This document shows, piece after piece, positions 14,176 to 52,625 of a stretch of DNA of 64,000 nt (position 1 is its first letter; every line of letters starts with the position of its first letter). A model generated the notes under the pieces. That model did not search any database. It had not been told where the DNA came from and saw only the letters and a list, made by a program, of their open reading frames with translations. The stretch lies in IMG/VR virus record IMGVR_UViG_3300029913_000001; one strand, written 5' to 3'. Source of the DNA: a virus (lineage: Duplodnaviria; Caudoviricetes). Both the position numbers and the translations under genes were made by a program.

Positions 14176-16437
14176 TTATTTCTCCTGTACCGGTTTCTTA
14201 ATGGAAATAGGAAAAGTATTAATTGCTGTTCCAATTACAAGATTATTACCCACCCAATCTAAATTAACAGTCGCTCCGTTTGGAATGATTCCGTTTAATA
14301 GTTTAACGCTAAGTGGATATCTAATTAAAGAATCAATAATACCAGAAATCTTTCTTGCCCCATATTCATTACTCTTATTTAGCTCGAGCACATGGCTGAT
14401 AAGATTTTCAGTCGCAATAATAGTTAAATTTTTATCGGTAAGCGCAGCGATTTCTGCAATTTTTGTTTGTGCGATTTTACGATAACTAAGATCGTCCAAA
14501 CTATTATATTCAATCATAGCTGTAATGCGTCCTCGGATTTCAGTGAGGAAAACATTATTAATAGCCTTTGTAACTGCACTCATGCCATTTGAGTCCGGAA
14601 TAAAACCTAAATTAATCTTACTCTTTTCTCGACTGCCTACATTACTACTCATAATAATAATTGTATTTTTGCAATCGGCTGTTTTTCCACTGGCACTTGA
14701 AATAGTACCTTCATCCATCATCTGAAGAAGCAAGGTGTATAAATTTGGATTTGCTTTTTCGATTTCGTCGAAAAGAATAACCGAATTTGGATGCTTCATT
14801 AAATCGTTGATAAGTTTGCCTTCTCCTGCATCCCCATCCCCATATCCTTTATATCCAGGGGGCGCACCGATTAATGTCGCCATTGCGTGATCTGCCTGAT
14901 ATTCACTCATATCGTAACGAAGTAAATGCATATTCATATACGATGCAAGTTGCTTTGCGGTGTAAGATTTACCTACGCCGCTAGGGCCGGTTAGTAAAAA
15001 ACTACCAATGGGTTTAGATGGATCTCGCAACCCGGCTTGTGAAATAATTAGGGACTCGGCAATTTTATCAATTGCATGTGTCTGATGGAAAATTTTTGAA
15101 TTTAGGGTCTCTCGAATATTAAGAATATCGGCCGCGTTATTCTGATCAGTCGTCTTAACCAAAATGCCGGTACTAGTTTCGATCTCTCGAATAATATCCA
15201 ATTTTGTAATACGCTTATTCTTATCTTTAGCAACCGTTTTACGGGCGCAAGCAGAATCGATCAGATCAATTGCTTTATCTGGAAGCTGCCGATCTGGCTG
15301 ATAACGAACGGATAATTCGACTGCGGCTTCGATTGCATCGTCCTGAATACGGCATTTATGGAATTTATTAAAACTGTTCTTAACTCCTTGAAGAATTAAA
15401 ATAGTTTCTGCTTTACTCGGTTCCTTTAGAGCAAGCAATCGAAACCTACGCATAAGAGCGGTATCTTTCTTAAATGTCTGGGTATATCCATCCCATGTAG
15501 TTGCTGCAATAACTTTAATATTACCGCGACTAAGTTCAGGTTTCAACATTGCTGAAAAGGCAACACCGGAATCATTTGAGCCGCCTCCGGAATTAATCTG
15601 TTGAGCCTCATCTATAAAAAGAATGGCATTTTTTTCATTAACTAATGCGGCTAAGACATTCTTAATCTTTTCCTCAAAATCTCCTCGGAAATGGCAACCG
15701 GCTAAAACCGATCCAACATCTAGACTATAAATAATCTTATCTTTTAAAGTACTGGGTACAATACCCGCATTAATATTACGAGCTAATCCTTCAATTAATT
15801 CCGATTTACCTACTCCAGGTTCCCCAACCACAAGTACATTATTCTTTTTCTTCTTCGACAGTGCATGTGCAATGTCAAACAATTCAATTTCCCGGCCAAT
15901 TAGCACATCGGTAGTACCTTTAACTTTTTCATTTAAATTCACACAAAATTCAGCTAATGCGGTAGTTGACTGTGTATCAGACGTTGTTAATTGATCTAGT
16001 CCGTCAATAATTTTGGAAGTAATGCCGTATTTCTCTAGAAAATAACTAGCATACGACTCCTTTTCGTTATATAACTTACGAAAAATATCACCAAAAGTTA
16101 CTTCTCTGCCATATTTTGTGGCTTCGGAGTAAGCCGAAACTAAAACTTTTTGCACCGAGGCTGTAATTTGCCCAGTCATAATATTCGGCTCGTTACTGGC
16201 AATTTTATTTTGAAGTCTAGGAGTTTGTGCTTCGATAAACTTTTTGATGGCCTCAGCCATCAAACTAACCGAAACTCCCTGATTTTCGAGATACTTCCGG
16301 ACAGATGAATACGACAAACTTGCATAAAGAATATGTTCGAGAGTAATAGTTGTTTGATCTAAATTAATAGCAAGCTGAAAACTAATATCAATAAGATTCT
16401 TAATTAACGGCGATCCGTTCGAAGTAGCAGTTGGCAT
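14176..16437 (-). CDS. clpA: ClpA-like double AAA+ unfoldase
   Basis: Clp N domain, GEPGVGKS, FIDE, GPSGVGKS, FDEIEK, LGF loop after IMSSNVG; no ClpB M domain. Confidence 0.85.
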   Translation of the reverse strand: MPTATSNGSPLIKNLIDISFQLAINLDQTTITLEHILYASLSYSSVRKYLENQGVSVSLMAEAIKKFIEAQTPRLQNKIASNEPNIMTGQITASVQKVLVSAYSEATKYGREVTFGDIFRKLYNEKESYASYFLEKYGITSKIIDGLDQLTTSDTQSTTALAEFCVNLNEKVKGTTDVLIGREIELFDIAHALSKKKKNNVLVVGEPGVGKSELIEGLARNINAGIVPSTLKDKIIYSLDVGSVLAGCHFRGDFEEKIKNVLAALVNEKNAILFIDEAQQINSGGGSNDSGVAFSAMLKPELSRGNIKVIAATTWDGYTQTFKKDTALMRRFRLLALKEPSKAETILILQGVKNSFNKFHKCRIQDDAIEAAVELSVRYQPDRQLPDKAIDLIDSACARKTVAKDKNKRITKLDIIREIETSTGILVKTTDQNNAADILNIRETLNSKIFHQTHAIDKIAESLIISQAGLRDPSKPIGSFLLTGPSGVGKSYTAKQLASYMNMHLLRYDMSEYQADHAMATLIGAPPGYKGYGDGDAGEGKLINDLMKHPNSVILFDEIEKANPNLYTLLLQMMDEGTISSASGKTADCKNTIIIMSSNVGSREKSKINLGFIPDSNGMSAVTKAINNVFLTEIRGRITAMIEYNSLDDLSYRKIAQTKIAEIAALTDKNLTIIATENLISHVLELNKSNEYGARKISGIIDSLIRYPLSVKLLNGIIPNGATVNLDWVGNNLVIGTAINTFPISIKKPVQEK

Positions 16438-37643: not shown

Positions 37644-40600
37644 TTAGTTTCCTTCGCAGTGATAGAAGAGGTTGCCGGTCAGTGATGGGAAGGTGAACGT
37701 CACCGCCGTGTTGCTTTGTGCGCTGTTGTAGACGTTGGTTGCCAGCGTTGTACTCGCGTTCGCCGTGCAAAACGCCGCATTTGTCCATCCAGAATTGGCA
37801 AAGGTGATAGTCACGGATGTTGCCGCGCTCAGGCCGGTGATCTCGCCACCCGCATTGGTGGAGTAGGCCGCGATAGTTCCCGCTGAGGTTATGGGCGCTG
37901 TTGCTGTGATGTGCTGAGTGCCGTTCAACCAGGTTCCCACCGTTGCAGTGTTGCCCACCGTTGAGGTGTTGCTGCCGTTCCCAACTGCTCCGTTGCCAAT
38001 CACATTTTCATTCGTGTCGCCGCTGGCCTTTGCCTCCGTGTTAGCGCCTAGGTAGACGCTGTTTGAAGAGGTTGCGTTGGCTGTCGAACCGTCGCTGATA
38101 AATTGACCAGCCTGGTAACCCTGCGCGGAGTTGTAGTTGCCGGTCGTGTTGGAGTAGAGGACATTGTACCCCTGCGCGGAGTTGTAGTTGCCGGTCGTGT
38201 TGGAGTAGAGGGCATTGTACCCCTGCGCGGAGTTGTAGCTGCCGGTCGTGTTATATGTTCCGCCCCCGCCCTCGAAAATGTTGTGCAAAGAAGCCAAGCC
38301 TTGATACAGCATGGTAGTCGATACTGCGCCAGTCGAGTCTTTCCCCGTGTACGAAAAGGTTGTGATGGGGTTGATCTTCTTTGCGCTGATCGCTATCGTC
38401 CCGTTAAAAGCCGCAGTCGGCGTGTAGGTAAGCGAAGTTCCATTCGCCTTCGGACTGAATGTGAGTGTGCTGCTTGCCGCCGTGCTGCTGGTATACGTCT
38501 GTGCTGTCCCGATTGCGACTGTTACCGTCCCACTGCCCGTGTTGCCTGTTATTCCTGCCGAAATCTGGTAAAAACTTCCACTCGTAAATCCTGTGCAAGT
38601 CAGCGGTGCGGTCGTTCCAGGTGCAACGTAGTTGGGATAAGTCCCTGTCCAGCCGGTGCCGCTGCATGTTCCGCTGGTGGTCAGTTCTGGTCCAAGCGAG
38701 GCGGAATCTGTGGCTGATGTGGCTGCCGGAGATGTAATCGAGCCTACAGTTAGGATCGGAGTGCTCAAACCTCCGATTGGAGTCAGGGTCCCCGAATCGT
38801 TCAGCGTCATAAGCGACTGCCATGCAGTTCCGCTGCTATTCGGAGCCCACCACTGATGGGCATAAGAAGACGCCCCGGTATAGAGTCCCGTGTACCAGTC
38901 TGCCTCTCCGTTTCCCGTGGAGGCGTTGAAGCCCGCCATTGCCTCAGATTGAGACGCGAACGGAAGCACGCCACCTGCATAGAGATTAGCGCCCCCGACG
39001 CTACCAAACGAGCGGATAGAGCTTGCTTCCAGCGTGATTGTATTTCCATATTTGCAAACTCCATTGTATTGATTGCAAAAGGTGTTAGTACCTGTTGGGT
39101 CGGTTACAGCATACCCATCAAATGATCCGAAAAAGAAGTTTCCTGCATTAGTCGTCGTGTTGTTGATGACGATCCCGTTGTTCGTGTCCCAGATAGAGAG
39201 GTTGGTCCAATAATTCTGCTGCCAGGTGCCCGCTCCATCGATTTGGATTCCAATATCGCCGGGGATCAGGGCCTGAAAATTGTCCGCGATAAAGTTATTT
39301 CGTGCTATCAGTCCCGTCGATGTCGGATTGATTTCCGTGCCGATGATCGAATATGAATCCTGCACCCCATTAAAGCTTACCGAGTTGATGAAACCTGTCG
39401 TTGTGGCTGTGAGGTATCGACCGTATTGAAAGCCCTCAATCGTCACATCGTTGAACGCGACCGTGTAAATCGACTGCGTAGCCGCGTTCGTTGCAGATAT
39501 ATAGATCGCAGTGCCCGTTCTGACGGGATAGGCGGTGAGTTTCGAGTGCTCTAAGGTTGTCTGACTTCCATCGCGGTAATTGTCAGTATAGCTTATGACT
39601 TCGCCAGAGAATGCCGCTTGATTTGAGGCGTCAAACCAACATCCGGTGATGATAGAATTGTTGTTCTGAATCACCATCGTTTCAGCGGCGGTCGTCGGCT
39701 GAAATTCCTGCCCAAAGTCGCATTGTAACTTCTGGCCGTTCCCTATAGTAATCTGCGCCATTGGGAAGACGCCTGTGCCAAGTCCGCGTGTATCGCATGT
39801 TCCTTTTCCAGACGGCAGCGCGGCAAGGCAGGCATTGATCTTTGCACCCACATCTGCGCCGGGAAACTGTGCCACAGAATAAACTCCATTCACAGCGCCA
39901 GCCGCGACGTTGCCTGAGAACGATGCGCTGGTGCCGCTGAGTGCGCCGGTCAGCGTGCCGCCAGTGAGGGGAAGATAGCTGCCGCTACCGCCTGCGCACC
40001 CCGTCGTTGTAAGCGCCCCGCCTGTGCCGTTGGCGCAGACCGGAGACGTGCTGGGAGTGATGTTAGTAGGAATAATCGCCGGAGAAGACATCGATCCTGG
40101 AACTAGAAAATTTCCGCTTGGATCAAGCGTCGCACAGAGAGATGGATTATTGGACCCGTACATGCAGTACCACTTGAAACCTGCTGTGTTGAAGGTTTTG
40201 AGATAAGCACCGAATGCTGCGCCCTGCTGGTAATAGTTTCCACCAGCACCGTTTACCCCGAAACCGTAGCCAGTTAGATTCTCTCCAGCGGAAGTAACCC
40301 CATTATTGAGCAGAGAAGAGTTAGTCTGAAAAGAAGTCGTCGCCGTTCCATTCGTGGCTGTACCAGAAGCGAAACTATTATTACTGACGTTTCCCCATAT
40401 CGGGCTGAAGTAACTTAAGCTTCCAATCGAAGCTGCAAAGGTGTTTGTGTTTTGAAATACAGCGCCGGTGCCGTCTATAGAAGCGCCTCCGCCGATGAAG
40501 CTATTTTGTATAAAACTTGTGCCTGAGTACAGAATTCCGACACCACCAATTCCGCTCGGATTTTCATAGGTATAGCCAAAAAACGTATTATTAATCGCAT

Positions 40601-41594
40601 TGCCTAGAGTAGGATTGCCCGTGGCATTTAGTTCGATTCCAGCCCCGCTTCCGGTAGCCTGCACATCTTCGAATATATTATCGTTCACCCACCCGTTAGA
40701 AGAAGCCGATATATAAATGCAGCGATAACCTCCGTAGCAGCGGATGTGCTTGAATGGAATGAAGGCAATGCCATAATACGAGGCGGTTGAAGATACATAA
40801 ATGCCATAACCGCCCGGCTGCCCTTCGGCAGACTCCGCACTCACATTGAAGTTGAAGTCCTCAACTCCCCCCGTGGCACCATCAATAGAGTTTTCGTTGA
40901 TTGTGATTTCCTTCCCGGTATAAGCTGCTGTGCTAGGAAAAGTAGTATGAAGGCCCTTGATCGTTCCGTTCGGTCCCTTTAGGAACATGTTCGTGGAGTT
41001 TGTCGAAGGAAGTACATTGGTGGCAGGATCAAAGAGCAACGTTTGGGAAGGCCCTGACATGCTACCCGGAGCAACATGCACCTGCGCCGCAATATAGATT
41101 GTTAATGCTCCGTAGCATCGCGCATCCACTGTGCCGCCGCTAGAGATGTCCGCGAGAGCCGCCGTAATCTGCACATCGGCGGTCGCCCCAGCATAAGAGC
41201 AGGAAGAGACAATACTGTTCACAGCGCCAGCCGCGACGTTGCCTGAGAATGTGCCATTACCAGTGGACCCGTCCAGGGTAATCGACGGTGCGATCGGAGT
41301 GCCTACCGCGAAGGTACCAGGAGCTGTTACAACCTGCGAACTACCACTGCCTGTTGCGGTCCATCCAGACGGCAATCCTGTAAAACTAGAGCAAGTAATT
41401 GCTCCATTAGATGCGGTTGCTAATACAGGACAGTTAGCCGCAATGCCGGCGCCAGTAAAAAGATTTGCCCAAGCTCCTGCGGCGGTATTTGCTCCGGTTC
41501 CCCCATTATGGATGTTAACGGTTGTTATATTTTGGGCAATTAAATTAATGGGCAATAAACATAAAAATAAGAATAATAATTTTTTAGCTAACAT
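37644..41594 (-). CDS. mosaic fibre/spike-like protein with two beta-helix-like modules, YadA-like repeats and an N-terminal signal-peptide-like segment
   Basis: 1316 aa, Gly/Thr/Ser/Asn rich; MLAKKLLFLFLCLLPINLIAQ; duplicated FSGNVAAGAVN junction; NTTGNYNSAQGYNALYS repeats. Confidence 0.7.
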   Translation of the reverse strand: MLAKKLLFLFLCLLPINLIAQNITTVNIHNGGTGANTAAGAWANLFTGAGIAANCPVLATASNGAITCSSFTGLPSGWTATGSGSSQVVTAPGTFAVGTPIAPSITLDGSTGNGTFSGNVAAGAVNSIVSSCSYAGATADVQITAALADISSGGTVDARCYGALTIYIAAQVHVAPGSMSGPSQTLLFDPATNVLPSTNSTNMFLKGPNGTIKGLHTTFPSTAAYTGKEITINENSIDGATGGVEDFNFNVSAESAEGQPGGYGIYVSSTASYYGIAFIPFKHIRCYGGYRCIYISASSNGWVNDNIFEDVQATGSGAGIELNATGNPTLGNAINNTFFGYTYENPSGIGGVGILYSGTSFIQNSFIGGGASIDGTGAVFQNTNTFAASIGSLSYFSPIWGNVSNNSFASGTATNGTATTSFQTNSSLLNNGVTSAGENLTGYGFGVNGAGGNYYQQGAAFGAYLKTFNTAGFKWYCMYGSNNPSLCATLDPSGNFLVPGSMSSPAIIPTNITPSTSPVCANGTGGALTTTGCAGGSGSYLPLTGGTLTGALSGTSASFSGNVAAGAVNGVYSVAQFPGADVGAKINACLAALPSGKGTCDTRGLGTGVFPMAQITIGNGQKLQCDFGQEFQPTTAAETMVIQNNNSIITGCWFDASNQAAFSGEVISYTDNYRDGSQTTLEHSKLTAYPVRTGTAIYISATNAATQSIYTVAFNDVTIEGFQYGRYLTATTTGFINSVSFNGVQDSYSIIGTEINPTSTGLIARNNFIADNFQALIPGDIGIQIDGAGTWQQNYWTNLSIWDTNNGIVINNTTTNAGNFFFGSFDGYAVTDPTGTNTFCNQYNGVCKYGNTITLEASSIRSFGSVGGANLYAGGVLPFASQSEAMAGFNASTGNGEADWYTGLYTGASSYAHQWWAPNSSGTAWQSLMTLNDSGTLTPIGGLSTPILTVGSITSPAATSATDSASLGPELTTSGTCSGTGWTGTYPNYVAPGTTAPLTCTGFTSGSFYQISAGITGNTGSGTVTVAIGTAQTYTSSTAASSTLTFSPKANGTSLTYTPTAAFNGTIAISAKKINPITTFSYTGKDSTGAVSTTMLYQGLASLHNIFEGGGGTYNTTGSYNSAQGYNALYSNTTGNYNSAQGYNVLYSNTTGNYNSAQGYQAGQFISDGSTANATSSNSVYLGANTEAKASGDTNENVIGNGAVGNGSNTSTVGNTATVGTWLNGTQHITATAPITSAGTIAAYSTNAGGEITGLSAATSVTITFANSGWTNAAFCTANASTTLATNVYNSAQSNTAVTFTFPSLTGNLFYHCEGN
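38119..38252. repeat. 51 bp tandem coding repeat, about 2.6 copies
   Basis: CCCTGCGCGGAGTTGTAG... starts at 38119, 38170 and 38221. Confidence 0.9.
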
Positions 41595-42234
41595 AATAAG
41601 CCTTCAATATAGAATTTGTTTGCGGTGCTGTAAACATAGTAATAGTAGTTCCCGATAACGTGTAATCGTCATTTTGTGATAAGACTACCCCGCCTAACGT
41701 CAAAATAAGTGAATCCGGCGTTGACGGTAAAGATGCCAAATTAAAAATTAAGTTGACACCATTTATAATGCCGGATACCGTAGTATTTCCATATACGGTT
41801 GAACTTCCAGTAGATATTAAATACTGCCAATAAAAAAAATATAAATTATCGTCCGGCTGCGGAGCTTCTGTAAAAGTAATTGTGCTTCCGGCGATAGAAT
41901 ATCCTACCCCAGGTATTAATGGAAAATTTTTCCATACAATTAATGTATTTCCCATCGGCGTGGATGGAAGATGAAAAACATTATTGCTTCCATCAACTGA
42001 GCCGGACGGAACTCCGGCAATCGGAAGACCTGAGCCGGAACTAGTTTCCGTTGAATTAGGAACAGTAACAATTTCGGTGTTGCCAGAATATGGGGCGCCG
42101 TCGACGATGGTTCCATTTCCAACAAATAATCGTTGAGTATCTACAGCCCAGCAAAGTTCACCTTTCGCCAATTGCGGCAAATTCTGCTGAAGGCCCGAAC
42201 GAATTTGAATTCTAGAATTTTGCTTGATAGCCAT
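41584..42234 (-). CDS. tail fibre-base protein (Mtd/hyaluronidase-type N-terminal motif)
   Basis: RIQIRSG...LAKGELCWAVDTQRLFVGNG; two GxxDGxNxxFxL repeats. Confidence 0.7.
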   Translation of the reverse strand: MAIKQNSRIQIRSGLQQNLPQLAKGELCWAVDTQRLFVGNGTIVDGAPYSGNTEIVTVPNSTETSSGSGLPIAGVPSGSVDGSNNVFHLPSTPMGNTLIVWKNFPLIPGVGYSIAGSTITFTEAPQPDDNLYFFYWQYLISTGSSTVYGNTTVSGIINGVNLIFNLASLPSTPDSLILTLGGVVLSQNDDYTLSGTTITMFTAPQTNSILKAYYVS

Positions 42235-42366
42235 TAAGATTCCTCTCTTATATTTATATCCAACTCGCAAATGTAAAACCAATAACTAGAGTTAGTAGAT
42301 ATAAGCGAGTTGTGTGGCCTGCCGCATAAATGTGGCGGCTCACGTTAATGAATATTTTTTACAAAG

Positions 42367-43442: not shown

Positions 43443-44015
43443 TTATCCTCGAATCTTTCGAATCATTTCAATATGCAGCCTTCCTAAATTAATAGCATCC
43501 GTTACTGCGCTATGCGGTTTTCCTTCGAATGTTAAATGAAGATATTTTAACGCATTTGCTAACGTCAATTTTTTCTTGATCGAATAGTTACTTCGAAAAA
43601 TAACACCCAAATCCCAAATACCGGTATTACCCCAAGGATTTTCAATATTATCTTTTAAACATTGCTCAATGATAGCATCATTGTCCGATCCCCATGCGTA
43701 AGAAACTTTTCCTCGCGGAGAAAATTCATTTCGAATGGTATTCATAACATCCGAAAATCGTCTCCCTTCTTTTAATAATAATTCTTTTGTTATTCCGGTG
43801 AGGTTAGTACAATACTCAGATACTTCAAAATCTTTATAATTCGGACGAATATAATAATTAGCTGTTCGAGTAATTTTCAAATCGTATGAGTCAATTTCAC
43901 ATATACCGACTTGAATGATATGCTTCGATTGGCCCAATGGGCATTTTCCATCCGGCCAGCATAACATTTCTAAATCCATAAAACTAATTTTTTGTGATGA
44001 TAAATTCTTTGTCAT
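43443..44015 (-). CDS. DEDDh 3'-5' exonuclease (ERI-1/KapD-like)
   Basis: MDLEM, IIQVG, LTGIT, WGSD, HSAVTDA. Confidence 0.85.
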   Translation of the reverse strand: MTKNLSSQKISFMDLEMLCWPDGKCPLGQSKHIIQVGICEIDSYDLKITRTANYYIRPNYKDFEVSEYCTNLTGITKELLLKEGRRFSDVMNTIRNEFSPRGKVSYAWGSDNDAIIEQCLKDNIENPWGNTGIWDLGVIFRSNYSIKKKLTLANALKYLHLTFEGKPHSAVTDAINLGRLHIEMIRKIRG

Positions 44016-44025
44016 TACATCTTTC

Positions 44026-44220
44026 TTATTCAGATAATTTCATAATCAATAATGCAGACTTGGCTTCGTGAGCAGTAATATATCGATCCTTCAACCAAAA
44101 CCAATCTTCAAGCATGTTAACTTGAATACCAAATGTATTGCCTTCGGCTGGATATATTCTAGTAGGATATGCGTTAACAACGGCATCTGATAGATACCAG
44201 GTTGATTGAAGTTTTGGCAT
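44026..44220 (-). CDS. KLSE-family small protein
   Basis: ends EAKSALLIMKLSE. Confidence 0.65.
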   Translation of the reverse strand: MPKLQSTWYLSDAVVNAYPTRIYPAEGNTFGIQVNMLEDWFWLKDRYITAHEAKSALLIMKLSE

Positions 44221-44222
44221 AA

Positions 44223-44378
44223 TTACTCGGATAATTTCATAATCAATAATGCAGAATTGGCTTCTGCTTCAGATGCAAACGGGCCAGATCGTACATACCA
44301 TTGTCCATTAAAATAAGGACGTATACACCATCTAATTAGCCCGGTTATAGTTTTATAACTTTCTATCTTATATTTCAT
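44223..44378 (-). CDS. KLSE-family small protein (51 aa, not in ORF track)
   Basis: MKYKIESY...GPFASEAEANSALLIMKLSE. Confidence 0.65.
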   Translation of the reverse strand: MKYKIESYKTITGLIRWCIRPYFNGQWYVRSGPFASEAEANSALLIMKLSE

Positions 44379-44638
44379 TCTGATAGTCGATCATCTAGTT
44401 GATCGCTCACCGTGGCAATTCGGCCATAAATATCTACCGTGTCTATCCATCGTTCTAACGGGAAAAAGAATACTCTATGCATACGGCAACTTCGTATTTT
44501 ATAACAACGGTTGGTATTAGTACACGCCATTACTATGCACTCTTCTCGCGTGCGAGCGGAAAACCTATCAAAAATATTGCCGTATACTACAACCCGATCT
44601 CCAATTTGATATTTTGTTTCATTCATTTGTGAATCCAA
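44375..44638 (-). CDS. small hypothetical protein, degenerate RLSE ending
   Basis: ends DQLDDRLSE. Confidence 0.55.
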   Translation of the reverse strand: MDSQMNETKYQIGDRVVVYGNIFDRFSARTREECIVMACTNTNRCYKIRSCRMHRVFFFPLERWIDTVDIYGRIATVSDQLDDRLSE

Positions 44639-44647
44639 TCTGTTTTA

Positions 44648-44884
44648 TTATTCGGACAATTTTAAAATTAGTAATGCAGCTTCCGCTTCTTCCTTCGTTG
44701 TATATAACTCTGGGCTAAGATAATACCAGCCGCCCCGCAATATTGAATGAAATCGAGTTTGAATTCCATACCAATTACCCAGCTCTTCTATTCGATATTC
44801 TCTAATTAATTTCGGCAATGGCTGTATCTCGGAAAACGTAAAATTTTTGCACATCTCAATTATTAATTTGGTATCAAGATTCAT
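44648..44884 (-). CDS. KLSE-family small protein
   Basis: ends TTKEEAEAALLILKLSE. Confidence 0.65.
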   Translation of the reverse strand: MNLDTKLIIEMCKNFTFSEIQPLPKLIREYRIEELGNWYGIQTRFHSILRGGWYYLSPELYTTKEEAEAALLILKLSE

Positions 44885-45042
44885 TCGGATAATTTTTCTA
44901 TCAAAATATAATTTTTAGCTTCGATTTCAGTATCAAATACTCGTAAAAATTGGGCGAGCCCTCGATAATCTAAGCGATAAACTAGCCATCTATCGCATAT
45001 TAATATAGGTGGCAAAATTTCATATGTATATTCAGTATTCAT
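44881..45042 (-). CDS. KLSE-family small protein (53 aa, not in ORF track)
   Basis: MNTEYTYE...FDTEIEAKNYILIEKLSE. Confidence 0.65.
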   Translation of the reverse strand: MNTEYTYEILPPILICDRWLVYRLDYRGLAQFLRVFDTEIEAKNYILIEKLSE

Positions 45043-45053
45043 ACAATTTGTAT

Positions 45054-45408
45054 ACCCCGTTTCTTTTACATAGGCGGGGTCACCCTACGGCGCACAGTTT
45101 TTAGGCTAGTGCGAGCTCGCGATTGCTAATTTTTACAGGGTACGTAAAAATCTTGGTCGCGCCATTGACGATTGAATCGGCAATTATACATATCATTTTT
45201 CAATTATGGGCGAAAATAACAAAGACCCAAGCCGTCCACATGACTTTCATTTATCCGTCGAAACCGTGACGCGCCCTAGTAGAATACTGGGGTGTAACAC
45301 CACATCCATCTAATACGAAACTATCTAACTAGTTCAGTATTCTTTTGGACGCGCGGAGAGTTGAACTCCGGTCCGCATAAAGAAATTCATGCTTCGTACG
45401 ACTCTAAC
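45054..45408 (-). ncRNA. ssrA: circularly permuted (two-piece) tmRNA: acceptor piece ~45408-45346, intervening segment 45345-45277, coding piece from 45276
   Basis: T arm CGGAG-TTCAACT-CTCCG, 3' CGCGTCC-A pairs with downstream GGGCGCG (G3.U70); TTTCGAC D-loop analogue; AGAATACTG/CAGTATTCT intervening stem; tag frame 45181-45101. Confidence 0.9.
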
Positions 45409-46068
45409 TTATGCAAATTTTTTTTCGTTGATCATAATTGGTTTCGAATACAATTCTTTCATTACTTTTGCATAACCGACTGAATTAGTACACAATGTCT
45501 TAAGATGATCCCGATATAATCTTTTTCTGAGTATTGCATGATGCCCTTCATCCAAATTAGTTAATAAACCACCATTAGTTAAAAGTCCAAAAATATCGAT
45601 TAATTTAGATTCAGCTTGAAATGCTTCTGCTTCAGTTAAACTTCCTTTAACTCGAAATACTATATGCTTTTCATTTAACGAATTTATAGATTGCAAAATT
45701 TTTCGATGTGTTTCATTTCGCCGCGAATTTTTATCACGATCATTTACTCCTTTTCCTATATAAAAAGGAACATACTCCATACCCAGGCTAGCGGCAAACG
45801 CGTCTTTTGCTTTTTCTAAATCAAGATCAAACAATGGATTCAAGTGAGCATACACAAAATATTTCTTTTCGTTTGATAATTCTAAATCTTCATAAATCGA
45901 GCTAATATCGGAATTCCATATAGAATTATATGCTTCGAATTTTGGACCCTGCCTAACGATATTCTCCGCTCCTAGACCATTCTTTTCTAACGCTCGAATT
46001 CTAGATTTTAAATATCGAACTTTACCTTTCAGCGAATCAATCGAATTCCAATTAACCTTAATATTCAC
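45409..46068 (-). CDS. GIY-YIG family putative homing endonuclease (probable GTG start at 46068)
   Basis: YFVYAH...PFYIGKG..R...H...EAEAFQAESKLI...GGLLTN. Confidence 0.75.
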   Translation of the reverse strand: MNIKVNWNSIDSLKGKVRYLKSRIRALEKNGLGAENIVRQGPKFEAYNSIWNSDISSIYEDLELSNEKKYFVYAHLNPLFDLDLEKAKDAFAASLGMEYVPFYIGKGVNDRDKNSRRNETHRKILQSINSLNEKHIVFRVKGSLTEAEAFQAESKLIDIFGLLTNGGLLTNLDEGHHAILRKRLYRDHLKTLCTNSVGYAKVMKELYSKPIMINEKKFA

Positions 46069-46122
46069 TTTTATTTCCTCAATATTTATAGTATACAACA
46101 ATAATAAAAATATAGCAACAAC

Positions 46123-46404
46123 TTATTTTACATATTGCCCAATACTAACACCTAATTGGCCGGTGTCTGATGAATTCAAACTCTCTTTAATTTCGATTAT
46201 TAATTTAGGTATATCTAACAAGTCGGAATCCTCTAGGAAAAAGCACTTAAAATCTCCGGCATCATTAATTTGAAGAGCGAGCTTATCTTCCCAACCGGTG
46301 TCATTACTACCATATCTAGCGTAGGTCAATACATGATGGCAACGCGCCGGCGGCGGAATATCGGCTTCTACTGCTTTCAGAAAATCGATTAAAAATTGTC
46401 GCAT
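46123..46404 (-). CDS. hypothetical protein
   Basis: 93 aa ORF with SD GGAG. Confidence 0.6.
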   Translation of the reverse strand: MRQFLIDFLKAVEADIPPPARCHHVLTYARYGSNDTGWEDKLALQINDAGDFKCFFLEDSDLLDIPKLIIEIKESLNSSDTGQLGVSIGQYVK

Positions 46405-46605
46405 ATCACTCCTAATATTAAGAAGATATCGAACGTTGGTATTTGCGCCTTACAAATATGATACACCTTAAATAAGTCTAATTTAAGAATATTTGCAATC
46501 GGTGATACTCCATTCAGGATATCGATTTCTATCCTCGAGCTCGATACCATCTTAATTCTTTTAAATCAACTGCATAAAATCATATTATTTTTCATATTTA
46601 AAATT

Positions 46606-46667
46606 GGGGGCGCACGAAGCGATAATCAACATGCGCCGCCTCCACCACCGAATCAGAAAGGATTCGG
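46606..46667. other. tRNA-Ala/tmRNA-like mini-helix plus adjacent hairpin
   Basis: Plus strand GGGGGCG-N24-CGCCTCC-ACCA (46606-46647), then CCGAATC-AGAAAG-GATTCGG. Confidence 0.45.
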
Positions 46668-46675
46668 ACTTATTA

Positions 46676-46903
46676 CTACATACTTAATCTTTCGAGCAAT
46701 AACCAATCTTCTGCTTCCTTTTTTGTAGAGCACGAATGAATAACCGTAGGAGGAATACACTCGTCGCATGGATTTCGACTATTTGAAAAATCGTAGGTTT
46801 TAATAACGTTCCATTTATTATCTACCCGATCATCTTTAACGATCTTCAAGGAAGTTTTCACAATGAAGTGGTAATTCACCTCGGATTTATCACACCTATT
46901 CAA
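46676..46903 (-). CDS. KLSE-family small protein
   Basis: ends STKKEAEDWLLLERLSM. Confidence 0.6.
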   Translation of the reverse strand: MNRCDKSEVNYHFIVKTSLKIVKDDRVDNKWNVIKTYDFSNSRNPCDECIPPTVIHSCSTKKEAEDWLLLERLSM

Positions 46904-47074
46904 ATTTCATACCTTTCTTGGGAGTGTACGTCACCAACCAGGCATAACTGCCATCTTTATTTTTTGACAAATTTAGATATCCGGCAACTTTTTCTTTTCT
47001 GAGAGAATCAATAAAATCAAGGGCGGCCTTGGTCGTTTCAAATTCAGATGTCTTCTGCTTCATAATATCCTTTC

Positions 47075-47880: not shown

Positions 47881-48165
47881 TTATTCCTCTTCAAACAATT
47901 TCTTCAAAATAGGTAATGCACGACGATAAAACTTGGCGCGAACACGCGCATGATTCTTTCTCCAAAGAGCTAAAAAGTTTTCGTGGCGGTTCGAGTAATT
48001 CGGCGTTCCATATAGTTGCACGTTAAATCGAATCCGCTCAAGAACTCGGGAGGCCGCCTGGTCCGCTAATACTGATCCCAGGCCTTTCGATGTTACGTAA
48101 TTTTTTCCGAAACACGAAACAACAACGGTCTTTTTAACCTTCATATTTTTACCGTAATGACTCAT
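47881..48165 (-). CDS. hypothetical basic protein
   Basis: 94 aa ORF abutting neighbours. Confidence 0.5.
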   Translation of the reverse strand: MSHYGKNMKVKKTVVVSCFGKNYVTSKGLGSVLADQAASRVLERIRFNVQLYGTPNYSNRHENFLALWRKNHARVRAKFYRRALPILKKLFEEE

Positions 48166-48201
48166 TCAAACACATCCATTTCTGCCTCAGTAATGAGGCA
48201 T

Positions 48202-48402
48202 TTATTCCTTTTCATATCCTTCAAACCACGGACCCATTCGGCGAGTTGCCTCCTTACCAGACGGGGTTTGCGTGGTCGCCGAACTAGTATCTTCACGCTT
48301 GCACCATTCTTGTGCTTGCTCCAAAGTATATCCTCGATACATGGTTCGTTTCCGCTTATTGGAATCAGCATAATACCGAACGATTTTGTAGGTTTCAGCC
48401 AC
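48202..48402 (-). CDS. conserved small phage protein
   Basis: YKIVRYY...GYTLEQAQEWC...WFEGY. Confidence 0.6.
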   Translation of the reverse strand: MAETYKIVRYYADSNKRKRTMYRGYTLEQAQEWCKREDTSSATTQTPSGKEATRRMGPWFEGYEKE

Positions 48403-48405
48403 AGA

Positions 48406-49725
48406 TTATACCTTTCCGGAAGAAGCGGTAACCAACGCTACCGCTTCTTCCCTTGTAGTAACTACGCCTTCGAGTTGAGCAGTTTCGACCGCTTCTAGCA
48501 AAGTCTTGAATACCGGGCCTGCCTTAAATCCCATAGCAAGCAAATCGTTTCCGGTGAGCAAACGAACGGGATGAAGTTCATCCTTCATGTTGTCGCGAAA
48601 CCCACGGCAAAAATTGTTTGCGGTGAGATCGCCATTACTACCAAGGCTGTCAACCCGGTTAAGTTCAAGCAGTTCAGAAAAATTTTCCATACGAACAAAC
48701 CGCTTCATCTTTGACAACGACATCTTTTCCGTGTTAAAAAACCGCATATGATTTTCAACCAAAGACGACACCGTGCCGACAACTTCATTTGAAAACCGAA
48801 AATCACGAAGCAGCCGTTCAGCCATACGAGCCCCAACGTGCTCATGCCCGTGAAACTGATTATGTCCGGTCTTTTCATTTGTCTTTGCTGTGACCGGCTT
48901 CCCTACATCGTGAAGCAAGGTTGCAAGCGCCAACGTAAGAGAGCAGCCGGATTCGAGCATAGAAAGCATCTTCATTGTATGCTGCCACACATCGCCTTCC
49001 GGATGCCACATTGAATTCTGCGTAACCCCATGCATATTGCACAGTTCCGGCATAAAATGAACTAGCAAACCGGTGGTGTCCATTGTCTGAAAAGCTACCT
49101 GTACATTACCGCCAGTAAGAATCTTTGCCAGTTCACCAGCAACACGATCAGCGGGCAAAGTCGTAACATCCTTCGAACGCAATGTCATTGCGGACACGGT
49201 AAGCGGATCAAGCATGAACCCCAAACGAGCTGCAAATCGAACGGCTCGCAGCAGGCGCAAAGCATCTTCTTGAAACCGATCGCTAGGATTGCCGACCGTG
49301 CGCAAAACCTTATTTTCGAGGTCGGCAAGGCCATTAACAAAGTCAAATACCTTGCCCGATTCGTCCATCAGAAGTGCATTGACTGTAAAATCACGGCGCT
49401 TAACATCTTCCCTAGGATCCGTTGTAAACTTAACAGAATCCGGGCGGCGATTGTCAGAATACGCACCATCCTCGCGGAAGGTTGCAACTTCGAACTGCTC
49501 ACCATTCACATTAACAACCGAAACGCCAAAATTCTTACCAACCAATTTCGAGGTAGAAAACAATTCGGTGACCTGATCAGGAGTTGCACTCGTGGCCAGA
49601 TCCCAATCATGAACCGGAAGATTCAACAGTGAATCTCGCACGCAACCACCCGCGAAGTAGGATTCAAATCCCGCATTCTTAAGGGTGACTAGTGCTACCA
49701 TCGCATTGTGATTCATCTCAACCAT
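48406..49725 (-). CDS. cca: class II tRNA nucleotidyltransferase (CCA-adding) with HD domain
   Basis: GGCVRDSLL, DWDLAT, EVATFR, RRDFTVNA, EDALRLLRAVRFA, HPEGDVWQH, LLHDVGK. Confidence 0.9.
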   Translation of the reverse strand: MVEMNHNAMVALVTLKNAGFESYFAGGCVRDSLLNLPVHDWDLATSATPDQVTELFSTSKLVGKNFGVSVVNVNGEQFEVATFREDGAYSDNRRPDSVKFTTDPREDVKRRDFTVNALLMDESGKVFDFVNGLADLENKVLRTVGNPSDRFQEDALRLLRAVRFAARLGFMLDPLTVSAMTLRSKDVTTLPADRVAGELAKILTGGNVQVAFQTMDTTGLLVHFMPELCNMHGVTQNSMWHPEGDVWQHTMKMLSMLESGCSLTLALATLLHDVGKPVTAKTNEKTGHNQFHGHEHVGARMAERLLRDFRFSNEVVGTVSSLVENHMRFFNTEKMSLSKMKRFVRMENFSELLELNRVDSLGSNGDLTANNFCRGFRDNMKDELHPVRLLTGNDLLAMGFKAGPVFKTLLEAVETAQLEGVVTTREEAVALVTASSGKV

Positions 49726-49731
49726 GCTTAA

Positions 49732-49760
49732 AGTATATCAACTTTCGGTTAGTTTGTCAA
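49732..49760 (-). promoter_or_regulatory. sigma70-type promoter of cca
   Basis: TTGACA-17-TATACT, ATG 6 nt downstream. Confidence 0.8.
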
Positions 49761-49773
49761 GAGAAAATTACTG

Positions 49774-49904
49774 GTTGAAAACAAAGGACTTAAATCACCC
49801 CAGTATGCCCTGATTCAATTCCGCCATACCAGACCACAACGGGCCCATATTGGGGCCCTGGTGGGGGAATTATAATATATCGACCCTTTTAAATCAATGA
49901 CTTA
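49774..49904 (-). repeat. 131 bp conserved intergenic element, copy A
   Basis: Aligns end to end with 53953-54082 (inverted); shared boxes AAGT..TTGATTT.AAAGG, CAGGGCCCCAAT, TAAGTCCTTT.TTTTCAAC. Confidence 0.75.
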
Positions 49905-50087
49905 ATCGGTATCGTGGTCCTCATCGTTGGCCTTGGCAATAAGATCTCGCATAGAAGTCTTATAACGAGCGGGTTTTTCATGCTTTGGTGTGATTGCAAA
50001 CGAAGCCTTAGGTGTACCAATACGATCTCGGGCATTCGATTTCACTTGAGCAACAGCACTGAAAACATCCTTTTTACGCTTCGACAT
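49902..50087 (-). CDS. small basic protein
   Basis: 61 aa, AVKSNARDRIGTP-type basic motif. Confidence 0.55.
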   Translation of the reverse strand: MSKRKKDVFSAVAQVKSNARDRIGTPKASFAITPKHEKPARYKTSMRDLIAKANDEDHDTD

Positions 50088-50281
50088 TATTTTCTCCGAT
50101 TTCTTAAGGTTTTATAAAGAACAAATCCAGCAACAATGCCAGCAAAATTAGCTGCTCGTTGTTCGGGAGTCCAATGAAAACATCCGGCCAATTGGCTAAT
50201 CAAAAACATCAAAAAACCAAAGGACACAAGCGCAATTCCTCCGAATACAATCCAAACAATTGCACCTAAAATTAAATTCAT
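50087..50281 (-). CDS. small membrane protein
   Basis: Two hydrophobic segments; SD AAGGAG; promoter TTGACA-17-TATACT at 50302-50330. Confidence 0.65.
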   Translation of the reverse strand: MNLILGAIVWIVFGGIALVSFGFLMFLISQLAGCFHWTPEQRAANFAGIVAGFVLYKTLRNRRK

Positions 50282-50359
50282 TTGATCTCCTTACTTAAAT
50301 AAGTATAACAAATATCAGTCTAAATGTCAACCGAATATAAAGTCTTTGCTATAAACTGT

Positions 50360-50971: not shown

Positions 50972-51019
50972 ACTTTTTCCTCTCGGTATAAATGTTAACG
51001 GAAATATTTCCGATAGTTT

Positions 51020-51310: not shown

Positions 51311-51322
51311 TTTTTCCTTTTG

Positions 51323-52338: not shown

Positions 52339-52350
52339 TTAAATGGCCTT

Positions 52351-52566: not shown

Positions 52567-52590
52567 ATGATTTTTCCTTGAATTACCATA

Positions 52591-52625
52591 AAAATAACGG
52601 GCTGAATCTGTCAGCCCGTTATTTT
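52591..52625. terminator. intrinsic terminator
   Basis: AAAATAACGGGCTGA-ATCTG-TCAGCCCGTTATTTT. Confidence 0.85.

What the first reader, a model, noticed from the sequence alone, without database searches (positions are those of the whole stretch)
45054..45408. Circularly permuted two-piece tmRNA in a jumbo phage
Seen: on the minus strand the 3' tRNA-like half (T arm, CGCGTCC-A, no encoded CCA) comes first, then a 69 nt spacer closed by a 9 bp stem, then the 5' half GGGCGCG-TCACGG-TTTCGAC. The acceptor stem has G3.U70, and the inter-piece helix GGATAAA..TCATG pairs with CATGA..TTTATGC. Known: permuted tmRNAs occur in Alphaproteobacteria, some Betaproteobacteria and cyanobacteria, and standard tmRNA finders often miss them. 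Inference: if the host is an acidobacterium with a one-piece gene, this is an independent permutation or a cross-phylum acquisition.
Basis: partly seen in the sequence, partly recalled or inferred. Interest (0 to 1): 0.85.

Follow-up and report, generated by a model that had tools for sequence, protein, structure and literature searches.

The report
Two-piece tmRNA gene in jumbo phage
This peat jumbo phage carries a real, rearranged ("two-piece") copy of tmRNA, the RNA that rescues stalled ribosomes. Such genes are already known in phages, but this one has no built-in CCA end, sits near a phage CCA-adding enzyme gene, and encodes an unusually long tag shared with a group of soil phages for which I found no description in the papers searched.

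Summary
ARAGORN calls a permuted tmRNA at 45010-45435 (-). Rfam's tmRNA_permuted model scores 60.3 bits against a cut-off of 47. The acceptor stem with G3.U70, the T arm, the missing CCA, the 69-nt spacer with its 9-bp stem and the inter-piece helices are all as described.

Two-piece tmRNAs in phages are already published (Melnitz and pelagimyophages: 53 unique ones). This scan has noted them in at least 289 other genomes.

The gene is not a lone invention. It belongs to a loose group of phage-borne permuted tmRNAs: 24 IMG/VR records, one metagenome contig, and the cultured acidobacterial jumbo phage Tunturi_5, where the gene is not annotated in the record or mentioned in its paper.

Three features stand out:
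- A 26-residue tag whose core, TKIFTYPV, matches the group's AKVLxFP motif (p about 0.003).
- No encoded CCA, unlike every relative examined, with a phage CCA-adding enzyme gene 3 kb upstream.
- No SmpB gene in this record or in any of the 22 tmRNA-bearing phage records searched.

The origin is unresolved. The alpha model gives no match, the beta and cyano models stay below their cut-offs, and the tRNA-like domain most resembles one-piece acidobacterial tmRNAs. An acidobacterial host is plausible but unproven.

The parts
45050..45407 (-). Whole permuted tmRNA (ssrA) gene. It fills the 366-nt gap between the stop codon of the upstream ORF (45409-45411) and the start of the next ORF (45042).
   Evidence: ARAGORN tmRNA*. 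Rfam RF04321 scores 60.3 bits against a gathering score of 47 at 45101-45403. No ORF of 50 aa or more lies here. The 5' limit is suggested by RNA-library contigs from two runs that end at 45406/45407. The 3' limit is not mapped.
45346..45407 (-). Acceptor piece (3' half of the tRNA-like domain). Its elements are the P2 strands GAGUCGU (45404-45398), GCAUGA (45392-45387) and CUUUAUGCG (45382-45374); the T arm (45370-45354); the acceptor 3' strand CGCGUCC (45353-45347); and discriminator A45346. No CCA follows (AAAG).
   Evidence: Sequence, Rfam structural alignment with a single non-canonical pair, and helix search. Across 16 relatives the acceptor stem, T stem and P2a covary and the G.U pair is invariant.
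45277..45345 (-). Intervening segment of 69 nt, expected to be removed on maturation. It is closed by the 9-bp stem 45343-45335 / 45289-45281, which extends the acceptor stem in the precursor.
   Evidence: Fold z = -3.0. The spacer-closing pairs next to the acceptor stem covary in the family alignment: 6, 3 and 8 sequences carry double changes.
45182..45276 (-). 5' part of the coding piece. Its elements are the acceptor 5' strand GGGCGCG (45276-45270); UCACGGUUUCGAC; the P2 strands CGGAUAAA (45257-45250), UCAUGU (45243-45238) and ACGGCUU (45235-45229); candidate pseudoknot PK1 (stem UGGG 45229-45226 / CCCA 45210-45207, with loop UUUUC 45216-45212 pairing GAAAA 45201-45197); and the resume context UAUAAUU.
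   Evidence: Rfam alignment and ARAGORN resume consensus. PK1 was read by eye and was not tested by covariation.
45101..45181 (-). Tag reading frame: resume codon GCC, 26 codons and UAA, giving ADSIVNGATKIFTYPVKISNRELALA*.
   Evidence: The core ATKIFTYPV matches the AKVLxFP motif of eight other phage tags: profile score 16.25, reached by 68 of 20,000 shuffles.
45054..45089 (-). 3' pseudoknot of the coding piece. CGUAGG (45089-45084) pairs with CCUAUG (45074-45069), which lies in the loop of the hairpin ACCCCG (45080-45075) / CGGGGU (45059-45054). The loop ends GUAAAAGAAA.
   Evidence: Read; the hairpin appears in the MFE and centroid folds. This stretch alone aligns to positions 243-304 of the beta_tmRNA model (11.6 bits, E 0.058). 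The relative L238 has the same hairpin, with GGGUU/AACCU in place of GUAGG/CCUAU.
48406..49725 (-). Phage CCA-adding enzyme (tRNA nucleotidyltransferase, 439 aa), 3 kb upstream on the same strand. It is the likely supplier of the CCA end that the gene does not encode.
   Evidence: Pfam PolyA_pol 125 bits plus PolyA_pol_RNAbd, HD and tRNA_NucTran2_2. PHROG 2244 scores 256 bits. It is 46.6% identical to Tunturi_5 gp279. The functional link to the tmRNA is inferred.
14176..16437 (-). ClpA-family double AAA+ unfoldase (753 aa) with an LGF tripeptide at 610-612, where ClpA carries its ClpP-docking loop. It is a possible handler of tagged proteins and is listed as context only.
   Evidence: Pfam AAA, AAA_lid_9, AAA_2 and ClpB_D2-small. 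PHROG 4871 'ATP-dependent protease' scores 637 bits. Sequence. Any link to the tag is speculation.

Best explanation
This is a working phage-encoded ssrA gene of the circularly permuted kind. The steps below are inferred unless marked as shown.

1. The region is transcribed on the minus strand, probably together with its neighbours.
2. The precursor folds so that the two halves of the tRNA-like domain pair across a 69-nt hairpin spacer.
3. RNase P cuts before G45276, and a 3' nuclease trims the acceptor piece back to discriminator A45346.
4. The gene encodes no CCA, so a CCA-adding enzyme must build that end. The phage's own enzyme, encoded 3 kb upstream, or the host's could do this.
5. The two RNAs stay together through three helices.
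6. Host AlaRS charges the molecule through G3.U70 and A73.
7. Host SmpB delivers it to ribosomes stalled on broken mRNAs. No phage SmpB gene was found.
8. Translation resumes at GCC 45181 and adds a 26-residue tag ending in LALA, then terminates.

The result would be freed ribosomes during infection and truncated proteins marked for proteolysis.

The gene belongs to a diverse group of phage-borne two-piece tmRNAs. Many of them carry long tags with a conserved K-(V/I/L)-(L/I/V/F)-x-(F/Y)-P core.
For: Shown:
- Two independent detectors find it: ARAGORN and Rfam RF04321, which is above gathering over the full model length.
- The domain has 27 modelled pairs with one mismatch.
- G3.U70 is invariant in 16 of 16 relatives. 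The acceptor stem, T stem, P2a and the spacer-closing helix all covary.
- The inter-piece helices are kept through different sequences in different relatives.
- The tag frame opens with Ala and ends with a hydrophobic Ala-rich tail, in the consensus resume context.
- The tag core is conserved at the peptide level while the codons differ: AAG AUU UUU ACG UAC CCU here, AAG GUC CUG GCC UUC CCG in L168. The profile test gives p about 0.003.
- The 3' pseudoknot is conserved, with compensating changes, in L238.
- RNA-library contigs from two peat runs cover 45103-45407 at 99% identity or more.
- No SmpB gene occurs in this record. None occurs in 22 tmRNA-bearing phage records either, including 6 that are at least 90% complete and the complete Tunturi_5 genome.
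- All 17 relatives examined encode ACC(A/T) after the acceptor stem; this gene does not.
- Among the 22 relatives searched, a CCA-adding enzyme gene occurs only in Tunturi_5.
Against: - No processing, charging or SmpB binding has been shown.
- The RNA-library contigs run straight through the spacer and also cover neighbouring genes. They could therefore be precursor RNA or carried-over DNA, and they say nothing about the two pieces.
- No promoter or terminator stands out above chance.
- The coding piece alone folds no better than shuffles (z = 0.21).
- The lack of an encoded CCA could instead mean decay or a non-chargeable decoy.
- The tag ends in LALA rather than the usual (L/M)AA.
- This gene is the most divergent member of the set, at 43-53% identity in the conserved blocks.
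- PK1 was read by eye only.
Confidence: 0.82

Rival explanations
1. Origin A. The phage group, this gene included, descends from the betaproteobacterial two-piece lineage and has spread among phages into hosts of other phyla. This is the 'cross-phylum acquisition' reading.
For: - Of the three lineage models only beta_tmRNA aligns over its full length (34.6 bits, E 5e-9). The alpha model finds nothing, and the cyano model matches only the tRNA-like domain (28.4 bits).
- The 3' domain alone picks the beta model.
- The group grades into clear beta-type genes: L178 scores 116.9 bits, L179 104.6 and L165 77.9, with tags such as ANDEVFALAA. Dechloromonas has ANDEHFAIAA and Accumulibacter ANDERFALAA.
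- L165 and L178 are the nearest in the acceptor piece (64% and 59%).
- The AU test does not reject a clade of this gene plus the native beta genes plus L165/L178/L179 (p 0.16).
Against: - 34.6 bits is far below the gathering score of 84.
- The native beta genes form a tight clade (98-100% support) that excludes every phage copy, even L165 and L178.
- In pairwise comparisons of the tRNA-like domain the native beta genes rank 20 and 23 of 37 for this gene.
- 'Beta' may simply be the least bad of three models.
Confidence: 0.35
2. Origin B. The phage group arose by one or more separate permutations of a one-piece tmRNA of the acidobacterial type. That would be a fourth, phage-borne lineage: the reader's 'independent permutation', but at the level of the family rather than of this one phage.
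For: - The tRNA-like domain of this gene scores best against the one-piece tmRNA of a Bryobacterales genome (Acidobacteriota). Acidobacteriota take ranks 1, 4, 5, 12 and 17 of 37.
- For the contig L060, from an Acidobacteriaceae MAG, the top three are all Acidobacteriota.
- GUCACGGUUUCGACGG(G)AU and UUUCGGACGCGGGUUCGACUCCCGC are shared with acidobacterial one-piece genes.
- PK1 of Tunturi_5 and L060 resembles that of acidobacterial genome G040 (by eye).
- Earlier scan reports describe phage families derived from one-piece Bacteroidota tmRNAs. These are leads only.
Against: - The likeness could reflect adaptation to host SmpB, AlaRS or EF-Tu rather than descent.
- The panel is small (37 references, 5 of them acidobacterial) and was not chosen at random.
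- The trees are unresolved stars.
- This gene shares UGCGGAC with L165, L178, L238 and one-piece Burkholderiales tmRNAs rather than the acidobacterial UUCGGAC.
Confidence: 0.3
3. The permutation happened in this phage's own recent ancestry. This is the strict reading of 'an independent permutation'.
For: It is the most divergent gene of the set and the only one without an encoded CCA.
Against: Other phage records share the gene order, the inter-piece helices, the 3' pseudoknot and the tag motif. They include L238, a 37% G+C contig with the same UUAUGCGGAC and CCCCG...CGGGG hairpin.
Confidence: 0.04
4. It is a decoy or a decaying gene. Without an encoded CCA the RNA would not be charged, and would either titrate host SmpB to block host trans-translation, as proposed for the tRNA-like-domain-only RNA of mycobacteriophage DS6A, or do nothing.
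For: - It has no CCA, unlike all 17 relatives.
- A tRNA-like-domain-only molecule is reported to inhibit tmRNA (PMC4131195, PMC11915505).
- Divergence is high.
Against: - A decoy needs no tag frame, yet the frame is intact, in the consensus resume context, with a conserved peptide motif.
- The G3.U70 pair and discriminator A are kept.
- A CCA-adding enzyme is encoded 3 kb away.
- From general knowledge, many bacteria add CCA to all of their tRNAs after transcription.
Confidence: 0.08

Closest known systems
Two-piece (circularly permuted) tmRNA, Rfam RF04321 tmRNA_permuted (Keiler, Shapiro and Williams 2000; Sharkady and Williams 2004, both as cited in PMC9004378; PMC11915505)
   Same: It has the same gene order (acceptor piece, spacer, coding piece), a tRNA-like domain with G3.U70, inter-piece P2 helices, an Ala resume codon and an Ala-rich tag end. 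It scores above the family's gathering score.
   Different: It encodes no CCA, its tag is 26 residues long (PMC11915505 gives 10 as the most frequent length), it sits in a phage, and it fits none of the three lineage-specific models.
Phage-encoded two-piece tmRNAs of marine myophages (Melnitz and pelagimyophages, PMC9004378)
   Same: These are also permuted ssrA genes carried by lytic myoviruses without SmpB, and they have been proposed to act early in infection.
   Different: Those are of the alphaproteobacterial type, mostly marine or aquatic, and Melnitz's is reported to be controlled by a glutamine riboswitch. This one is from peat, matches no alpha model, and no riboswitch was found.
Permuted tmRNA of Tunturiibacter phage Tunturi_5 (PP885688.1 157899-158195, minus strand), found here
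   Same: Both are jumbo myoviruses carrying a permuted tmRNA with a long tag. Tunturi_5's tag is 34 aa, AKNSPVVRGTAKVLSFARKFVPAVSSTRAFAMAA, and has the same core motif. Both phages have a CCA-adding enzyme of the same type (46.6% identity) and no SmpB.
   Different: Tunturi_5 has 58% G+C, encodes CCA and carries 43 tRNA genes. It did not appear among the 15 best DNA-polymerase or ClpA-like matches listed. The two tRNA-like domains are 47% identical.
Betaproteobacterial two-piece tmRNA (Rfam RF01850; Dechloromonas, Accumulibacter)
   Same: This is the best of the three lineage models. It aligns over its full length, and its 3' hairpin/pseudoknot with a CCUUGUUACCAAAG-like loop is alike.
   Different: The score of 34.6 bits is far below the 84-bit cut-off. 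The native genes have 10-residue tags, UCGACAGGG/UUCUGGAC in place of UCGACGGAU/AUGCGGAC, and spacers of about 25 nt.
One-piece tmRNA of Acidobacteriota (Rfam RF00023)
   Same: These are the best pairwise matches to the tRNA-like domain. The GUCACGGUUUCGACGG and CGGAC...GGUUCGACUCC strings are shared.
   Different: They are one-piece genes with four-pseudoknot bodies of 350-370 nt and short tags: ANNNLALAA, ANNNTQFAYAA, ANQQMAYAA and ANTQFAYAA.

Membership tests
tmRNA, permuted form (Rfam RF04321) | Score at or above the curated gathering score over the full model | tested here: met
   60.3 bits against 47, model positions 1-213 of 213, E 3.5e-9 for the 64-kb window.
tmRNA, permuted form (Rfam RF04321) | The 3' half of the tRNA-like domain lies upstream of the 5' half on the same strand, separated by a spacer | tested here: met
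   Acceptor piece 45407-45346, spacer 45345-45277, coding piece from 45276.
tmRNA, permuted form (Rfam RF04321) | A 7-bp acceptor stem with G3.U70 and discriminator A (the AlaRS identity elements) | tested here: met
   GGGCGCG/CGCGUCC plus A45346. The G.U pair is invariant in 16 of 16 relatives while its neighbours covary.
tmRNA, permuted form (Rfam RF04321) | Helices that hold the two pieces together (P2) | tested here: met
   Three helices of 8 (one mismatch), 6 and 7 pairs. P2a covaries, and the outer helices are kept through different sequences in the relatives.
tmRNA, permuted form (Rfam RF04321) | A tag reading frame with an Ala resume codon in the consensus context, ending in a hydrophobic Ala-rich tail and a stop codon | tested here: met
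   UAUAAUU-GCC...CUA GCC UAA, 26 codons.
tmRNA, permuted form (Rfam RF04321) | An encoded 3' CCA (usual in database entries, and required by their curators) | tested here: not met
   AAAG follows the discriminator. All 17 relatives have ACCA or ACCT. No sequence variant was seen in the RNA-library contigs. This feature is not needed for function if CCA is added enzymatically.
tmRNA, permuted form (Rfam RF04321) | Cleavage into two RNAs, alanylation, SmpB binding and tagging activity | not testable with these tools
   Only assembled contigs of RNA libraries were available, and they cannot show RNA ends.
Betaproteobacterial two-piece tmRNA (RF01850) | Score at or above the gathering score of 84 bits | tested here: not met
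   34.6 bits. Native genes form a separate clade with 98-100% support.
Alphaproteobacterial two-piece tmRNA (RF01849) | Score at or above the gathering score of 50 bits | tested here: not met
   No match even at E of 10 or less. The alpha clade is separated with 98-99% support. A related jumbo phage record (G033) does carry a clear alpha-type gene at 115.8 bits.
Cyanobacterial two-piece tmRNA (RF01851) | Score at or above the gathering score of 70 bits | tested here: not met
   28.4 bits, model positions 45-130 only, which is the tRNA-like domain.
Phage-borne long-tag two-piece tmRNAs (a group defined here, not a curated family) | A tag of 26-34 residues with the core K-(V/I/L)-(L/I/V/F)-x-(F/Y)-P in the same register | tested here: met
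   ATKIFTYPV scores 16.25 against a profile built from eight other tags, reached by 68 of 20,000 shuffles. The test is post hoc.

The most novel reading that the evidence does not exclude
This gene would be one member of a so far undescribed, phage-borne lineage of two-piece tmRNAs carried by soil and peat phages of Acidobacteriota and their neighbours, including the cultured phage Tunturi_5. On this reading:
- the lineage arose by its own permutation of a one-piece tmRNA;
- its long tags carry a conserved internal K-hydrophobic-hydrophobic-x-aromatic-P degron;
- that degron routes tagged host or phage proteins to a particular protease or adaptor, for instance the phage's own ClpA-type unfoldase or Lon, rather than serving as a plain ClpXP tag.

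From memory, the core resembles hydrophobic Lon degrons such as beta20.
Probability: 0.2. Interest if true: 0.7.

Novelty: new variant of a known kind. Interest (0 to 1): 0.45.

Why it matters
Phage tmRNAs are usually listed in annotations and seldom studied further. Four things here give a concrete handle on what they do.

- **A shared tag motif.** A group of soil and peat phages carries two-piece tmRNAs whose long tags share a peptide motif. That implies the tag does more than end in Ala-Ala.
- **A culturable system.** One member sits in a phage-host pair that can be grown in the laboratory (Tunturi_5 and Tunturiibacter), where it has gone unannotated. Processing, charging and tagging could be tested there directly.
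- **A mismatch with the host.** Phages whose likely hosts have one-piece tmRNA nonetheless carry the permuted form. This bears on how often the permutation arose and on why phages favour it.
- **A dependency inside the phage.** The pairing of a gene without CCA with a phage CCA-adding enzyme is a small, testable example of a phage supplying its own RNA maturation step.

Tried and rejected
**Searches that found no close relatives**
- blastn of the gene against 50,697 phage records: no match.
- An exact 20-mer of the 5' tRNA-like domain in IMG/VR: none.
- Relatives of the CCA-adding enzyme in IMG/VR by peptide patterns: none.
- The T-arm/acceptor pattern in metagenome contigs: none. A second pattern gave one true relative (L238) and one chance hit.

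**Searches that gave little**
- DNA-polymerase relatives in IMG/VR (35 records, mostly small fragments): only one had a permuted tmRNA, and it was of the alpha type.
Most of its 120 hits were chance matches in G+C-rich genomes; only 14 were tmRNAs.
- blastn of a long-tag relative against cultured phages hit only T-arm/attP fragments.

**Origin**
- Trees of the tRNA-like domain with 33 and 53 rows resolve only the alpha and native beta clades. AU tests reject nothing.

**Host**
- The 1316-aa tail-fibre-like protein has no phage match and no useful Atlas lead.
- PHROGs found nothing for the ORFs of contig L060, and the tblastn hits for its large ORF do not tie it to Tunturi_5.
- Low G+C (35%) was considered as evidence against an acidobacterial host. 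It was set aside because Atu_ph07, a relative in this phage group, has 37.1% G+C on a host that I recall as high in G+C, and I recall the same pattern for PA5oct.

**Transcription signals**
- Promoter and terminator scans gave nothing above chance.

**Readings rejected**
- A riboswitch as in Melnitz: no Rfam match.
- An attP-type fragment of host ssrA: the gene is complete.
- A protein-coding reading: there is no ORF.
Full report
**1. What is there**

On the minus strand, the 366 bases between the stop codon of one ORF (45409-45411) and the start of the next (45042) hold no ORF of 50 aa or more.

- T arm: 45370-45354.
- Acceptor 3' strand: CGCGUCC, 45353-45347.
- Discriminator: A45346, followed by AAAG rather than CCA.
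- Spacer: 69 nt, 45345-45277.
- Acceptor 5' strand: GGGCGCG, 45276-45270, then UCACGGUUUCGACGG.

The acceptor stem has seven pairs with G3.U70.

ARAGORN calls a permuted tmRNA with the tag ADSIVNGATKIFTYPVKISNRELALA*. Rfam's tmRNA_permuted model (RF04321) matches over its whole length at 60.3 bits. Its gathering score is 47, and E is 3.5e-9 for the window. Only one modelled pair is non-canonical. The spacer plus acceptor stem folds with z = -3.0 and contains the 9-bp stem.

**2. The carrier**

The window is part of a 105-kb IMG/VR virus record that CheckV rates as 29% complete. Its DNA polymerase (43-45% identity) and its ClpA-like ATPase (35-36%) are closest to the T4-related jumbo phages Phosso, the PA5oct group and Atu_ph07, which are 287-490 kb. 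'Jumbo phage' is therefore reasonable.

The 3-kb stretch around the gene (44000-47000) recurs in peat metagenomes. Sixteen runs hold at least half of its sampled words, and the 24 runs listed come from 22 studies.

ARAGORN finds no tRNA gene in the 105 kb, and a search for SmpB finds no match.

**3. Anatomy beyond the tRNA-like domain**

Three helices join the pieces:

- CUUUAUGCG/CGGAUAAA, with one G.G mismatch;
- GCAUGA/UCAUGU;
- GAGUCGU/ACGGCUU.

A candidate PK1 lies at 45229-45197, eleven bases before the resume context UAUAAUU-GCC. I read it by eye.

After the stop codon there is a pseudoknot at 45089-45054. It is made of the hairpin ACCCCG/CGGGGU, whose loop CCUAUG pairs with the upstream CGUAGG. 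The relative L238, a 37% G+C metagenome contig, has the same hairpin with GGGUU/AACCU in place of GUAGG/CCUAU. That is a compensating change.

**4. Relatives**

A 22-base pattern from the 5' tRNA-like domain, with three free positions, found 29 IMG/VR records.

- 24 of them carry a permuted tmRNA above Rfam's cut-off. They include complete genomes of 61-139 kb, so the trait is not limited to jumbo phages.
- The best phage match of the window's CCA-adding enzyme is Tunturiibacter phage Tunturi_5 (46.6% identity). This is a cultured 309-kb myovirus of an acidobacterium.
- Its genome holds a permuted tmRNA at 157899-158195 (86.4 bits). ARAGORN misses it, the record does not annotate it, and the paper never mentions tmRNA (PMC11924767).
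- A homologous gene lies on a 59.6-kb contig binned into an Acidobacteriaceae MAG (L060). No one-piece tmRNA was found in that MAG.

In an alignment of 16 of these genes:

- the G.U pair is invariant;
- the other acceptor pairs, the T stem, P2a and the pairs that close the spacer all covary;
- the outer inter-piece helices are maintained through different sequences.

This is good comparative support for the two-piece fold.

**5. The tag**

Many of these phage genes encode tags of 26-34 residues with a shared core:

| Source | Tag |
|---|---|
| L169 | ...SAKVLAFPAMPEALPMAA |
| L182 | ...FAKLLTFPVSEPVALPMAA |
| L188 | ...LAKVLTFPVATEALQMAA |
| Tunturi_5 | ...TAKVLSFARKF... |
| L060 | ...KANVVSFPT... 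|
| This window | ...ATKIFTYPV... |

The window's core sits in the same register as the others. Against a profile built from eight other tags it scores 16.25, a value reached by 68 of 20,000 shuffles of its own residues (a post-hoc test).

The codons differ while the residues are conserved: AAG AUU UUU ACG UAC CCU here, AAG GUC CUG GCC UUC CCG in L168. Selection therefore seems to act on the peptide.

The five acidobacterial one-piece tmRNAs examined have short tags such as ANNNLALAA and ANTQFAYAA. I found no paper describing the long-tag motif.

**6. The missing CCA**

All 17 relatives examined encode ACCA (one has ACCT) after the acceptor stem. This gene has AAAA, and the RNA-library contigs show no variant there.

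Three kilobases upstream, on the same strand, lies a 439-aa CCA-adding enzyme with the domains PolyA_pol, RNA-binding, HD and tRNA_NucTran2_2. Among the 22 tmRNA-bearing phage records searched, only Tunturi_5 has such an enzyme.

The simplest reading is that the acceptor piece is trimmed to the discriminator and receives CCA from the phage or host enzyme. This is inferred, not shown.

None of the 22 records encodes SmpB, so these RNAs must rely on host SmpB.

**7. Expression**

Contigs assembled from two peat RNA libraries cover 45103-45407 at 99% identity or more, and both sets end at 45406/45407. They also run through the spacer, and neighbouring genes are covered as well. These are contigs, so they show presence in RNA libraries and nothing about processing or level.

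**8. Which lineage**

Rfam lineage models:

- The alpha model gives no match.
- The cyano model matches only the tRNA-like domain (28.4 bits against a cut-off of 70).
- The beta model aligns over its full length but scores only 34.6 bits against 84. The 3' domain alone again picks the beta model, weakly (E 0.058).

The phage group grades into clear beta-type genes: L178 at 116.9 bits and L179 at 104.6. Native Dechloromonas and Accumulibacter genes were fetched for comparison.

Trees of 108 alignable bases of the tRNA-like domain separate the alpha clade (98-99% support) and the native beta clade (98-100%). They leave the phage genes in an unresolved mix with one-piece tmRNAs. AU tests reject none of the groupings tried (p = 0.16-0.27).

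In pairwise scores the window's tRNA-like domain is closest to a one-piece acidobacterial tmRNA. Acidobacteriota take ranks 1, 4, 5, 12 and 17 of 37, native beta genes rank 20 and 23, and the best alpha gene ranks 29.

That likeness could mean descent or adaptation to host factors. I leave the origin open between a beta-derived, phage-spread lineage and a separate permutation of a one-piece gene. A permutation private to this phage is unlikely.

**9. Host**

The evidence is indirect:

- the habitat is peat;
- the CCA-adding enzyme matches Acidobacteriota (5 of 6 genomes), Verrucomicrobiota and a Nitrospiraceae genome over its full length at 43-48% identity, but Proteobacteria, Bacteroidota and Firmicutes only weakly;
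- the tRNA-like domain and the tag motif tie the gene to Tunturi_5 and L060.

Acidobacteriota and Verrucomicrobiota overwhelmingly use one-piece tmRNA. PMC11915505 Suppl. Table 2 lists 1589 standard against 5 'beta-permuted' for Acidobacteriota, and I confirmed the one-piece form in genomes here. An acidobacterial host is plausible, about even odds, but unproven.

**10. Novelty**

A two-piece tmRNA in a phage is known (PMC9004378, PMC11915505), and tmRNAs in huge phages are known (PMC7162821). The scan has hundreds of notes on them.

I did not find the following described:

- the long-tag group with its conserved core;
- its presence in the cultured phage Tunturi_5;
- the combination of no encoded CCA with a phage CCA-adding enzyme.

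I therefore rate it a new variant of a known kind, of moderate interest.

Noticed in passing
L005 1501-1797 (PP885688.1 157899-158195, minus strand): The cultured acidobacterial jumbo phage Tunturi_5 carries a permuted tmRNA: RF04321 86.4 bits, CCA encoded, and the 34-aa tag AKNSPVVRGTAKVLSFARKFVPAVSSTRAFAMAA. It lies in an unannotated gap between gp218 and gp219. ARAGORN misses it, and the paper describing the phage never mentions tmRNA.
   Followed up: yes
L060 3094-3492 (CAXTMY010000016.1, a 59.6-kb contig of an 'uncultured Acidobacteriaceae' MAG): This contig has a permuted tmRNA homologous to Tunturi_5's, with the tag ANKGVLASKANVVSFPTRSAAPALALAA. No one-piece tmRNA was found in the same 3.4-Mb MAG. 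It may be a phage contig binned with its host. That could also explain the five 'beta-permuted' tmRNAs filed under Acidobacteriota in the 2025 tmRNA database.
   Followed up: partly
L043 1462-1765 (IMGVR_UViG_3300006916_000041, 172 kb): A jumbo-phage record related to this one (DNA polymerase about 50% identical) carries a clear alpha-type two-piece tmRNA: RF01849 115.8 bits, tag ANDNRAPEMALAA. Related phages therefore carry tmRNAs of different lineages.
   Followed up: partly
window 14176-16437 (-): This is a ClpA-family double AAA+ unfoldase (753 aa) with an LGF tripeptide at residues 610-612, where ClpA has its ClpP-docking loop. No ClpP gene was looked for.
   Followed up: partly
window 45409-46101 (-): The 230-aa ORF that ends two bases before the tmRNA gene has a weak, sub-threshold match to a GIY-YIG nuclease domain (PF22945, 19.7 bits against a cut-off of 27). 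It may be a homing endonuclease next to the RNA gene.
   Followed up: no
window 43443-44015 (-): This is a DEDD-type exonuclease (Pfam RNase_T, 44 bits) 1 kb downstream of the tmRNA gene. Whether it trims RNA 3' ends or is a DNA exonuclease was not examined.
   Followed up: no
window 38001-42000 and 48001-54000: These are islands of 46-54% G+C in a phage of about 35% G+C. They cover a 1316-aa ORF with no phage match (37644-41594, next to an Mtd_N-domain protein at 41584-42282) and, in the 48-54 kb island, the CCA-adding enzyme and ThyX (51323-52135).
   Followed up: partly
window 45406-45407: Contigs from two independent peat RNA libraries (X20, X21) both stop at 45406/45407, one or two bases after the upstream stop codon. 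This may mark the 5' end of the tmRNA precursor, but contigs cannot prove an RNA end.
   Followed up: partly
L238 839-1216 (Ga0316221_1028923, 2.5 kb, 37% G+C): In sequence features this is the closest relative found. It shares UUAUGCGGAC and the same 3' hairpin. It encodes CCA, has a spacer of about 25 nt, a U-run after the 3' hairpin, and a 26-aa tag (ATKRVNTRVARSYAESMGFENSVIAA) that lacks the AKVLxFP core.
   Followed up: partly
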